From IMG/VR virus record IMGVR_UViG_2529292910_000001: a stretch of DNA of 9,828 bases; one strand, given 5' to 3'. A model generated the notes under the pieces. The model did not search any database. It saw only the letters and a list, made by a program, of their open reading frames with translations, and had not been told where the DNA came from. A program made the translations under genes and the position numbers. Below, in pieces: positions 3,150 to 3,428 of this stretch. The DNA comes from a virus. Its lineage: Monodnaviria > Loebvirae > Hofneiviricota > Faserviricetes > Tubulavirales > Inoviridae. The number at the start of each line of letters is the position of its first letter. The first letter of the stretch is position 1.

Positions 3150-3239
3150 GCGGTAAGATACGGTGAAAAACAGCCTGAAAGCCACACCGAATATCCTCAC
3201 CAGAACGCTGTCAGTCATCAATTTCATCAACATGCCACA

Positions 3240-3428
3240 TCAACGCCTGTACGACTCACGCCTTACGTCGTTCGTCTCGATGGCTGCCCGTTTAAAGGCG
3301 GTCTGGCAGGAAGCGCGTTGCGCTGTTCCGTGGTTCTCTGAAAGCTCTCTCTGGTATCGGCCGCTCAACTTCTGCATCACATGAAACCAAAGCGCGCGGC
3401 CTTCCATGTCCTGACGGACATAAATCAT
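3240..3428 (-). CDS. Hypothetical small basic protein (62 aa) start-stop coupled to gIV
   Basis: Its ATG overlaps the pIV stop as ATGA (3425..3428). The product is Arg-rich. There is no recognisable motif, and the ORF could be a chance frame in the phage intergenic region. Confidence 0.3.

What the first reader, a model, noticed from the sequence alone, without database searches (positions are those of the whole stretch)
3150..3428. Region between gIV and the dif junction: coupled 62-aa basic ORF and an antisense 73-aa ORF
In Ff phages the region after gIV holds the packaging signal and origins. In dif-integrating phages the equivalent end often carries accessory or virulence cargo (ctxAB in CTX-phi). 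Here a 62-aa Arg-rich ORF starts with an ATGA overlap on the pIV stop, and a 73-aa ORF (3163..3384) lies on the opposite strand. Either could be a small regulator or cargo, or the region could be structural DNA.
Basis: inference. Interest (0 to 1): 0.45.

Follow-up and report, generated by a model that had tools for sequence, protein, structure and literature searches.

The report
Phage complementary-strand origin, not small genes
The stretch between the phage secretin gene and the dif junction is not two small genes but a strongly conserved non-coding DNA signal, related to the F-plasmid priming site ssiE, that most likely tells host enzymes where to start copying the phage's single-stranded DNA.

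Summary
Both ORFs exist at the stated coordinates (62 aa, 3240..3428 minus, ATGA overlap with the pIV stop; 73 aa, 3163..3384 plus), but neither is a gene. In about 25 related phage copies the frames are broken by 1-nt indels and stops, substitutions show no codon periodicity (39/40/36), and automatic annotation is inconsistent.

What is conserved is the DNA, window ~3206-3421 on the phage (minus) strand. It is 74-83% identical between inoviruses whose pIV proteins share only 39-48% identity. It occurs with three different Rep families and in 3.6-kb satellites that have no assembly genes.

A profile of this core hits plasmid F nearly full length (E = 3e-9), exactly on ssiE (GenBank D90180), an experimentally isolated single-strand initiation sequence on the transferred strand. 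Its 5' module (two hairpins, with compensatory changes in 5 of 11 pairs) also heads the IncFII element lying where, as I recall, R1/R100 leading-strand priming starts.

The window sequence folds into three small hairpins followed by the only invariant CTG (3309-3307), an architecture like primase-dependent (G4-type) origins.

Best reading: this is the complementary-strand origin of this inovirus family, of plasmid ssi type and not Ff type. Priming activity itself is inferred, not shown.

The parts
3425..4705 (-). gene IV (secretin), the last gene of the assembly module. Its stop codon is at 3427-3425.
   Evidence: PF00263 E=1e-25 and PF03958; ORF list.
3206..3421 (-). Conserved non-coding core: an ssiE-family single-strand initiation signal and candidate complementary (minus)-strand origin, read on the viral (gene-sense) strand.
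   Evidence: About 25 homologs at 74-92% nt identity. Profile hit to F ssiE over HMM positions 4-217, E=3.4e-9. No conserved reading frame.
3406..3421 (-). Hairpin H1 (ATGTCC GTCA GGACAT), starting 3 nt after the pIV stop.
   Evidence: Stem variants are ATGCCC/GGGCAT, ATGCCG/CGGCAT, ATGCCGC/GCGGCAT and ATGCC/GGCAT. 3 of 6 pairs show compensatory changes. H1 is also the first element of F ssiE and of the IncFII element.
3359..3401 (-). Hairpin H2: a 5-6 bp base (GGCCG...CGGCC) closing a ~33-nt loop that contains the conserved GTTTCAT.TGA.
   Evidence: GGCCG/CGGCC, GGCGG/CCGCC and GGCCA/TGGCC variants. 2 of 5 pairs are compensatory and 100% of cells are paired.
3310..3329 (-). Hairpin H3 (GGA-AC-AGCGC-AAC-GCGCT-TCC), containing the invariant block ACAGCGCAACGCGC (3313-3326).
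   Evidence: Invariant in all 19 aligned sequences. Predicted in the DNA folds. Because it never varies, covariation cannot test it.
3307..3309 (-). CTG immediately 3' of H3: the candidate primase start triplet.
   Evidence: It is the only CTG present in all 19 core sequences. CCTGCCAGACC is also identical in F ssiE and in an IncFII element. G4's annotated primer start lies at a CTG 2 nt after hairpin I.
3206..3245 (-). 3' block with three TTGATG repeats, ending in GACTGACAGCG.
   Evidence: Nearly invariant. It is retained in F just beyond the deposited ssiE fragment. It occurs alone in extra copies within 340-nt tandem repeats in L007-type phages. Its function is unknown.
3150..3205 (-). Linker between the core and attP. 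It is conserved only in phages and satellites with the same attP type.
   Evidence: Alignments. The spacer between the core and dif varies from 45 to about 800 nt across lineages.
3122..3149 (-). dif-like prophage/chromosome junction: phage-derived XerC arm (3139-3149), central region (3133-3138), chromosomal XerD arm (3122-3132).
   Evidence: 3 mismatches to E. coli dif. Chromosomal homology ends here. Internal copies in tandem arrays have a degenerate XerD side.
3240..3428 (-). 62-aa ORF: judged not to be a gene.
   Evidence: Relatives have frameshifting 1-nt indels at 3336 and 3289/3290 and in-frame stops. There is no codon periodicity and no family match.
3163..3384 (+). 73-aa antisense ORF: judged not to be a gene, although some pipelines call it.
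   Evidence: The same indels break it, and the ORFs on this strand differ in frame and length among relatives. It is called as a gene in L081/L082 but has no Pfam family. PHROG E=0.37 only.

Best explanation
Window ~3206-3421, read on the minus strand (the phage's gene-sense, packaged strand), is a non-coding single-strand initiation signal (ssi) of the F-plasmid ssiE family. It serves as the complementary (minus)-strand origin of this dif-integrating inovirus.

Proposed mechanism: when the circular viral ssDNA enters a cell and is coated by SSB, three small stable hairpins (H1, H2, H3) stay folded and mark the site. A host priming enzyme then starts an RNA primer at the invariant CTG (3309-3307) just 3' of H3 and synthesises back through the hairpins. 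That enzyme is most likely DnaG primase acting alone, as at phage G4 oric and at the IncFII G-site. DNA polymerase III extends the primer to make the double-stranded replicative form.

Because the signal depends only on host enzymes, it is interchangeable. This would explain why it is shared by inoviruses with different Rep and assembly proteins, by satellites, and by conjugative plasmids.

Shown: the element is non-coding, it is exceptionally conserved, it is homologous to ssiE, its hairpins covary, and its strand and position are consistent. Inferred: that it primes DNA synthesis in the phage, and which enzyme does so. The two ORFs are chance reading frames across this element.
For: (1) Not coding. 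Variable columns by codon position are 39/40/36 (p=0.89). 1-nt indels at two sites occur in many homologs. There are in-frame stops, and the ORFs in relatives differ in frame, length and strand. PGAP annotation is inconsistent or absent.

(2) Exceptional conservation. The core is 74-83% nt identical where pIV is 39-48% aa identical and pI is about 40% or undetectable. It is flanked by three Rep families and is present in satellites encoding only pII, pV and a regulator.

(3) Homology to a functional ssi. The core HMM hits F at 65529-65333 over HMM positions 4-217, E=3.4e-9. This is ssiE, GenBank D90180.1, as listed in Supplementary file 4 of PMC11541004.

(4) Correct strand. ssiE and both Frpo copies map to the same F strand, the template of the leading genes. 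In all phage loci the core has the orientation of the genes. In IncFII plasmids the shared module points toward repA, so a primer would run away from oriR.

(5) Structure. For H1 and H2, 99.5% of cells are paired against 88.8% in shuffles (0/500). 5 of 11 pairs show compensatory changes, with none in slid controls.

(6) Architecture. The window folds as H1, H2, H3 and then the only invariant CTG. G4 has hairpin I followed by CTACTG at its annotated primer start. The IncFII element has CCGGCGTAAGCCGG followed by TACTG.

(7) Position. The core occupies the place where IKe has its annotated minus-strand origin, downstream of gIV and the morphogenetic signal.
Against: There is no experimental evidence for priming in any of these phages. 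Identity to ssiE is only about 59% over 246 aligned columns, with several indels, and the determinants of ssiE activity are not known to me.

Similarity to the IncFII element beyond the first ~75 nt is not statistically significant (z <= 2.2).

There is no sequence similarity to G4 oric or to the Ff/IKe/I2-2 origins, so 'G4-type' is an architectural analogy only. The priming class of ssiE, and the position of the R1/R100 G-site, rest on my recollection of Nomura 1991, Masai & Arai 1989 and Jiang 1993, which the library does not hold.

Overall predicted folding is not more stable than shuffles (z = -0.85).

The ~50-nt middle segment (GAGACG...GAGTCG) is absent from F, and the TTGATG block is unexplained. 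Both may carry another function.

In L007-type phages the core is not directly after gIV.
Confidence: 0.72

Rival explanations
1. The element, or part of it, is the packaging (morphogenetic) signal recognised by the assembly machinery. This would explain why satellites lacking assembly genes carry a 90-92% identical copy.
For: In Ff, IKe and I2-2 the morphogenetic signal lies at or just after the end of gIV. Satellites must carry a signal matching a helper phage, and they share the core plus linker with the window phage. A ~50-nt inovirus-specific segment (GAGACG...GAGTCG) is absent from F ssiE.
Against: The core has no long imperfect hairpin of the Ff type, and its folding is no better than shuffles. 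The same element occurs in plasmids that are not packaged into filaments. It is conserved across phages whose pI proteins are about 40% identical or undetectable, whereas a packaging signal should co-vary with the assembly proteins. Better hairpin candidates lie next to the core in relatives: a 60-nt hairpin at the gIV 3' end in L005 and an 80-nt hairpin after the core in L021.
Confidence: 0.12
2. The 62-aa basic ORF, translationally coupled to pIV, or the 73-aa antisense ORF, encodes a small regulator or cargo protein.
For: The ATGA overlap with the pIV stop is real. A similar C-terminal peptide (..[20 protein letters not shown]) can be read in several relatives. Some pipelines call ORFs here.
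Against: The frame is broken in most lineages: 1-nt deletions at 3336 and 3289/3290, 'GAC ATG TAA' in L003/L004, and a stop after 19 codons in L025. There is no third-position excess of substitutions. The called ORFs differ in strand and frame between genomes. There is no Pfam or PHROG family. The same DNA in F and IncFII plasmids lies outside any such gene.
Confidence: 0.04
3. It is a double-stranded-DNA or RNA regulatory element: Xer accessory sequences for attP, a promoter or terminator, or a 3'-UTR-derived small RNA.
For: It always lies on the XerC-arm side of the dif-like site and in a fixed orientation. In L005 and L008 a bidirectional terminator follows about 140 nt downstream, so the core is probably transcribed with gIV. 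The TTGATG repeats resemble protein-binding iterons.
Against: The distance to dif varies from 45 to about 800 nt, and L007-type phages are not at dif. No sigma-70 promoter-like or intrinsic terminator-like site was found. There is no Rfam match. Homologs in F and IncFII plasmids are not next to Xer sites.
Confidence: 0.08

Closest known systems
F plasmid ssiE (GenBank D90180.1; Nomura et al. 1991, Gene 108:15), a single-strand initiation sequence in the leading region next to oriT
   Same: There is significant, nearly full-length sequence homology (E=3.4e-9, HMM positions 4-217). Shared features are H1, GGAAGGCC, H2, CCTCCTGCCAGACC, CGGGCA, GTTGATGAAATTGA and the terminal ACAGCG. Both lie on the strand that exists as ssDNA.
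   Different: Identity is only about 59%. F lacks the AACG of the H3 mini-hairpin and the ~50-nt GAGACG...GAGTCG segment, and has a GCGAAGC mini-hairpin instead. The context is a conjugative plasmid leading region, not a phage genome.
IncFII (R1/R100/NR1) 'repA4-region' element containing the leading-strand priming site (G-site / ssiA)
   Same: It shares the first ~75 nt (H1, H2, conserved loop, CCGCCGAAGCC; cmsearch 58-59 bits, nhmmer E about 1e-10) and the motif CCTGCCAGACC. Its orientation is consistent with priming away from oriR.
   Different: It is about 330 nt long and has a G4-like hairpin (CCGGCGTAAGCCGG) plus TACTG directly after H2. The remainder is not significantly similar. Its identification with the G-site rests on position (about +749 from the repA1 stop) and on my recollection of literature that is not held.
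Phage G4 complementary-strand origin (oric), primase-dependent
   Same: The architecture is similar: a series of small stable hairpins on SSB-coated viral ssDNA followed by a CTG where the primer starts (PMC13037366).
   Different: There is no detectable sequence homology. The mini-hairpin here is GCGC-AAC-GCGC, not GCGAAAGC. Primase dependence is untested.
Ff / IKe / I2-2 minus-strand origin (RNA-polymerase-dependent hairpins B and C)
   Same: It plays the same role and sits in the same general place in the genome, in the intergenic region downstream of gIV and the morphogenetic signal.
   Different: There is no sequence similarity. The core has no long hairpins and no -35/-10 promoter mimic.
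Frpo / ssiD single-stranded-DNA promoters of F and ColIb-P9
   Same: They are also ssi elements on the transferred strand of the F leading region.
   Different: The sequences are unrelated. Frpo is a ~330-nt long stem-loop that reconstitutes a sigma-70 promoter (PMC9849209), and nothing like that is present here.

Membership tests
ssiE-family single-strand initiation signal | Significant sequence homology to the experimentally isolated ssiE | tested here: met
   nhmmer with the inovirus core profile against F: E=3.4e-9, HMM positions 4-217, at 65529-65333. The deposited ssiE maps to 65561-65372.
ssiE-family single-strand initiation signal | Conserved hairpins maintained by compensatory change | tested here: met
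   For H1 and H2, 99.5% of cells are paired, 5 of 11 pairs have double changes, 0/500 shuffles reach the observed value, and slid controls give 25-69% paired. The alignment was fitted to the model, which biases the counts somewhat.
ssiE-family single-strand initiation signal | Lies, in the active orientation, on the strand that occurs as single-stranded DNA | tested here: met
   The core has the same sense as all phage genes in every locus. Inovirus virions carry the positive-sense strand (ICTV profile PMC8491893, listed). In F it is on the template strand of the leading genes.
ssiE-family single-strand initiation signal | Directs primer synthesis and complementary-strand synthesis on ssDNA | not testable with these tools
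   This needs an M13/f1 minus-origin-deletion rescue assay or in vitro priming.
G4-type (primase-only) origin | CTG start triplet just 3' of a stable hairpin, with further hairpins 5' of it | tested here: met
   H1, H2, H3 and then the CTG at 3309-3307, which is the only CTG invariant in 19 sequences.
G4-type (primase-only) origin | Sequence homology to G4/St-1/alpha3 oric | tested here: not met
   There is no cmsearch hit in G4. Only the IncFII relative shows the GCGNNAGC + TACTG resemblance.
G4-type (primase-only) origin | Priming by DnaG plus SSB alone | not testable with these tools
   This is a biochemical assay.
Ff-type minus-strand origin | Homology to the Ff/IKe origin, or paired hairpins mimicking a sigma-70 promoter | tested here: not met
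   nhmmer and blastn find nothing in IKe, I2-2 or M13. There are no promoter-like hexamers and no long inverted repeats.
Ff-type packaging signal | Long (50-80 nt) imperfect hairpin at or after the end of gIV | tested here: not met
   Inverted-repeat search and DNA folding of 3110-3440 give z = -0.86. Such hairpins exist beside the core in L005 and L021, not within it.
Protein-coding gene (62-aa or 73-aa ORF) | Reading frame conserved among homologs, with excess third-position change | tested here: not met
   frameshifting indels, stops, and 39/40/36 variable columns by codon position.
Xer accessory sequence (cer/psi-like) | Fixed distance and phasing to the XerC arm of the core site | tested here: not met
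   The spacer is 45-800 nt, and the site is absent in L007-type phages.

The most novel reading that the evidence does not exclude
The element is a portable 'priming cassette' that moves between conjugative plasmids (F leading region, IncFII replicons), dif-integrating inoviruses and their satellites. Under this reading the inovirus-specific additions (the GAGACG...GAGTCG segment and the TTGATG repeats) are a packaging or helper-recognition signal fused to it. The ~215-nt module plus attP would then be the minimal cis-acting kit that lets 3.6-kb satellites parasitise unrelated helper phages.
Probability: 0.2. Interest if true: 0.6.

Novelty: new member of a known kind. Interest (0 to 1): 0.42.

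Why it matters
First, this removes two spurious 'hypothetical proteins' that pipelines call inconsistently in E. coli filamentous prophages.

Second, it gives a concrete, testable candidate for the complementary-strand origin of dif-integrating enterobacterial inoviruses (UPphi-like phages and relatives) and their satellites. I found no description of such an origin in the held literature.

Third, it links phage minus-strand origins to plasmid single-strand initiation signals: F ssiE, and the IncFII region present in about three quarters of complete E. coli genomes. These signals were originally detected by their ability to replace a filamentous-phage origin (from my recollection of Nomura 1991). 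This suggests that host-dependent priming signals are exchanged as modules among ssDNA-phase mobile elements.

If the primase-type reading is right, these inoviruses differ from Ff and IKe in the host enzyme that starts their replication.

Tried and rejected
Pfam and PHROGs scans of both peptides found nothing.

Rfam on the window region and on the plasmid-type locus found nothing.

BLAST of the phage, and of the core alone, against 50,697 deposited phage genomes gave no match.

A genome-contig scan with an 18-base invariant pattern returned only chance hits in GC-rich organisms.

RNAalifold on the whole core gave only a weak consensus (-18 kcal/mol, covariation term -0.58). MAFFT misaligned H1 there. 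An all-against-all covariation screen was dominated by G-T noise.

I first read the IncFII element and the core as sharing blocks end to end. A shuffle test did not support similarity beyond the first ~75 nt (z <= 2.2), so I withdrew that claim. Only the motif CCTGCCAGACC is noted as suggestive.

I considered the plus-strand origin and rejected it because the core occurs with three different Rep families.

I considered Frpo-type ssDNA promoters and rejected them because the sequences are unrelated and there is no long stem-loop.

I considered the DnaA-box (ABC primosome) type of ssi and found no DnaA box with up to 1 mismatch.

I tried to fetch the rest of the window's prophage. It is truncated by IS1 in gII in the source genome.

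I could not retrieve Nomura 1991, Masai & Arai 1989, Bernander 1992, Jiang 1993 or del Solar 1998.

I did not run the large protein-homology searches on the two peptides, because the DNA-level frame analysis already settled the coding question.

Full report
**Setting.** The window joins E. coli chromosome (the ydeS/ydeT/yneL fimbrial and AraC remnants, up to about 3150) to an inovirus prophage whose genes lie on the minus strand: gIV 3425..4705 (secretin), gI/Zot 4708..5832, gVI-like, gIII, gVIII, gV, gX. Homology with thousands of E. coli chromosomes stops at about 3150. A dif-like site lies at 3122-3149, with a phage-type XerC arm and a chromosomal XerD arm. An IMG/VR contig (L026) is 100% identical to the window. 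In a related assembly the prophage is truncated by IS1 inside gII.

**Observation.** The 62-aa ORF (3240..3428, minus) does start with an ATG overlapping the pIV TGA, and the 73-aa ORF (3163..3384, plus) exists. ORFs of this size are common throughout the window on both strands: 87 ORFs of at least 30 aa. Neither peptide matches Pfam or PHROGs.

**Not coding.** BLAST against complete E. coli genomes and pattern scans of IMG/VR gave about 25 homologs of the stretch at 73-92% identity. Four results argue against coding.
- In the alignment, single-base deletions at window 3336 and 3289/3290 are spread over many lineages in different combinations, so neither strand keeps a frame.
- L003 and L004 read GAC ATG TAA in the 62-aa frame, and L025 stops after 19 codons. 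The ORFs found in the homologs differ in frame, length and strand.
- Variable columns fall 39/40/36 on the three codon positions (p=0.89).
- PGAP annotates nothing here, or a 41-aa ORF on one strand, or a 50-51-aa ORF on the other.

**What is conserved is the DNA.** The core (window ~3206-3421, read on the phage strand) is 74-83% identical between phages whose pIV proteins are 39-48% identical and whose pI proteins are about 40% identical or undetectable. It is the best-conserved part of these genomes. Its other properties are as follows.
- It is found with pII/X-type, Rep_trans-type and gpA-type replication genes, so it is not a plus-strand origin.
- It is found in 3.6-kb tandem satellites at dif that encode only pII, pV, an HTH protein and two small ORFs.
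- It always has the orientation of the phage genes.
- A dif-like site always lies downstream with the XerC arm proximal, but at 45 to about 800 nt. In L007-type phages the element is neither at dif nor directly after gIV. It is therefore not a Xer accessory sequence.
- There is no promoter-like or terminator-like site, no Rfam family, and no similarity to the intergenic regions of IKe, I2-2 or M13.

**The link to plasmid priming signals.** Scanning IMG/VR with another invariant block turned up contigs that share only the first ~75 nt. That sequence proved to be the start of a ~330-nt unannotated element present at 7,512 plasmid sites in 4,063 of 5,426 complete E. coli genomes.

In IncFII plasmids this element lies 517-849 nt downstream of repA1. 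That is the 3' part of the 'repA4 region' between oriR and ter (PMC2762410; PMC4398462). Directly after the shared hairpins it has CCGGCGTAAGCCGG followed by TACTG. This resembles G4 oric hairpin I followed by CTACTG, where the annotated primer starts. Its orientation is such that a primer would run away from oriR. From my recollection of Masai & Arai 1989 and Jiang et al. 1993, which are not held in the library, this is where R1/NR1 leading-strand synthesis is primed by primase. Similarity between this element and the phage core beyond the first ~75 nt did not pass a shuffle test.

The decisive result came from plasmid F. The profile of the inovirus core hits F nearly full length (HMM positions 4-217, E=3.4e-9) at 65529-65333. 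The sequence table of known ssi elements in Samuel et al. 2024 (PMC11541004, Supplementary file 4) shows that this segment is ssiE (GenBank D90180.1). ssiE is one of the eleven single-strand initiation sequences isolated by Nomura et al. 1991, and it maps to F 65561-65372. ssiE, ssiD/Frpo1 and Frpo2 all lie on the same F strand, which is the template of the leading genes and hence the transferred strand. ssiE is unrelated in sequence to Frpo. The window core aligns with the F segment from H1 to the terminal ACAGCG, with 59% identity over 246 columns.

**Structure.** A covariance model of the 5' module, built from five inovirus sequences, recovers all phage copies, the IncFII elements and F ssiE. 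It finds nothing in IKe, I2-2, M13 or G4.
- On the resulting alignment H1 and H2 are paired in 99.5% of cells, against 88.8% in shuffles (0/500).
- 5 of 11 pairs show compensatory double changes, and none do so in register-shifted controls. The alignment was fitted to the model, which biases these counts somewhat.
- The window's ssiE-homologous part folds as H1 (3406-3421), H2 (base 3397-3401 with 3359-3363) and H3 (3310-3329, containing the invariant GCGC-AAC-GCGC).
- H3 is followed at once by CTG 3309-3307, the only CTG invariant in all 19 sequences.
- Overall folding energy is not unusual (z about -0.85), so most of the constraint is on primary sequence.

**Interpretation.** The stretch is best explained as the complementary-strand origin of this inovirus family. 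It is of the plasmid ssi (ssiE) type, not the Ff RNA-polymerase type. It sits where IKe has its annotated minus-strand origin.
- The host-only dependence of such signals would account for its sharing among phages with different Rep and assembly modules, satellites and plasmids.
- The hairpins-then-CTG layout suggests direct priming by DnaG, as at G4. This sub-claim is an analogy with roughly even odds, because there is no sequence homology to G4 and the priming class of ssiE is recalled from memory, not verified.
- The ~50-nt segment absent from F and the TTGATG-repeat block remain unexplained. The TTGATG block is kept in F and duplicated in L007-type phages. Either could carry a second function such as packaging.
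- Better packaging-signal candidates (long hairpins) lie beside the core in relatives.

**Novelty.** The held literature on E. coli dif phages treats this area only as putative ORFs in a region that is intergenic in IKe, I2-2 and M13 (PMC7307601). It does not mention an ssi. I found no paper linking ssiE or the IncFII site to filamentous phages. I rate this as a new member of a known kind, of moderate interest.

Noticed in passing
L001:9201-16200 (NZ_CM129038.1) and L002:9012-18336 (NZ_CM176589.1): 3.56-3.66 kb tandemly repeated mini-inovirus 'satellites' sit at dif. They encode only pII, pV, a 201-aa HTH_38/sigma-70-region-4-like protein and two small ORFs, with no coat or assembly genes. They share the core, linker and attP with the window phage at 90-92% identity. 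In L001 a full inovirus follows the array.
   Followed up: partly
L025:5560-5754; L001:12340-12540: Beyond the dif-like attP1 there is an inverted second attP-like site, so the viral strand can fold into a long hairpin. This resembles the CTX-phi-type single-stranded attP.
   Followed up: no
window 9550-9828 and beyond (L081:8701-9984): The window's prophage is defective in a related assembly (L081): IS1 interrupts gII, leaving only the C-terminal G2P_X_C part.
   Followed up: partly
window 1-860: An HTH/cI-like ORF (74..619, plus strand) replaces the expected fimbrial sequence. In L081 it lies next to a Mu-type transposase (HTH_Tnp_Mu_1), so a Mu-like element has inserted into the ydeR/ydeS cluster.
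   Followed up: no
window 6570-6770: gIII contains a ~200-nt run encoding a perfect Gly-Thr repeat. This makes long spurious ORFs in other frames and is a likely site of length variation.
   Followed up: no
L007:5424-6392 (also L022, L023): A 340-nt unit carrying the TTGATG block of the core is tandemly repeated about three times. This phage also carries a traX-like acetylase between gI and the core, has gIV downstream of the repeats, and is not integrated at dif.
   Followed up: partly
L113:3998-4345; L114:4998-5321; about 7,500 plasmid sites in E. coli: The ~330-nt IncFII 'repA4-region' element (H1, H2, a G4-like hairpin plus TACTG, ending at a ter-like GTTGTAACTA site) is unannotated in RefSeq and PLSDB, although it is present in about 75% of complete E. 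coli genomes. The historical repA4 ORF overlapping it may, like the ORFs here, be a reading frame across a cis-acting site.
   Followed up: partly
L021:892-971; L005:3230-3279: Long hairpins sit beside the core: an 80-nt near-perfect hairpin just downstream in L021, and a ~60-nt hairpin overlapping the gIV 3' end in L005. The L005 hairpin is positioned like the IKe and I2-2 morphogenetic signals, so both are packaging-signal candidates.
   Followed up: no
L079:5102-5175 and 8998-9214 (NZ_CP157133.1, IncFIB plasmid): One plasmid carries both a full inovirus-type core and a second, weaker copy of the H1/H2 module in an IS-rich region. These look like remnants of phage or ssi sequences on plasmids.
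   Followed up: no
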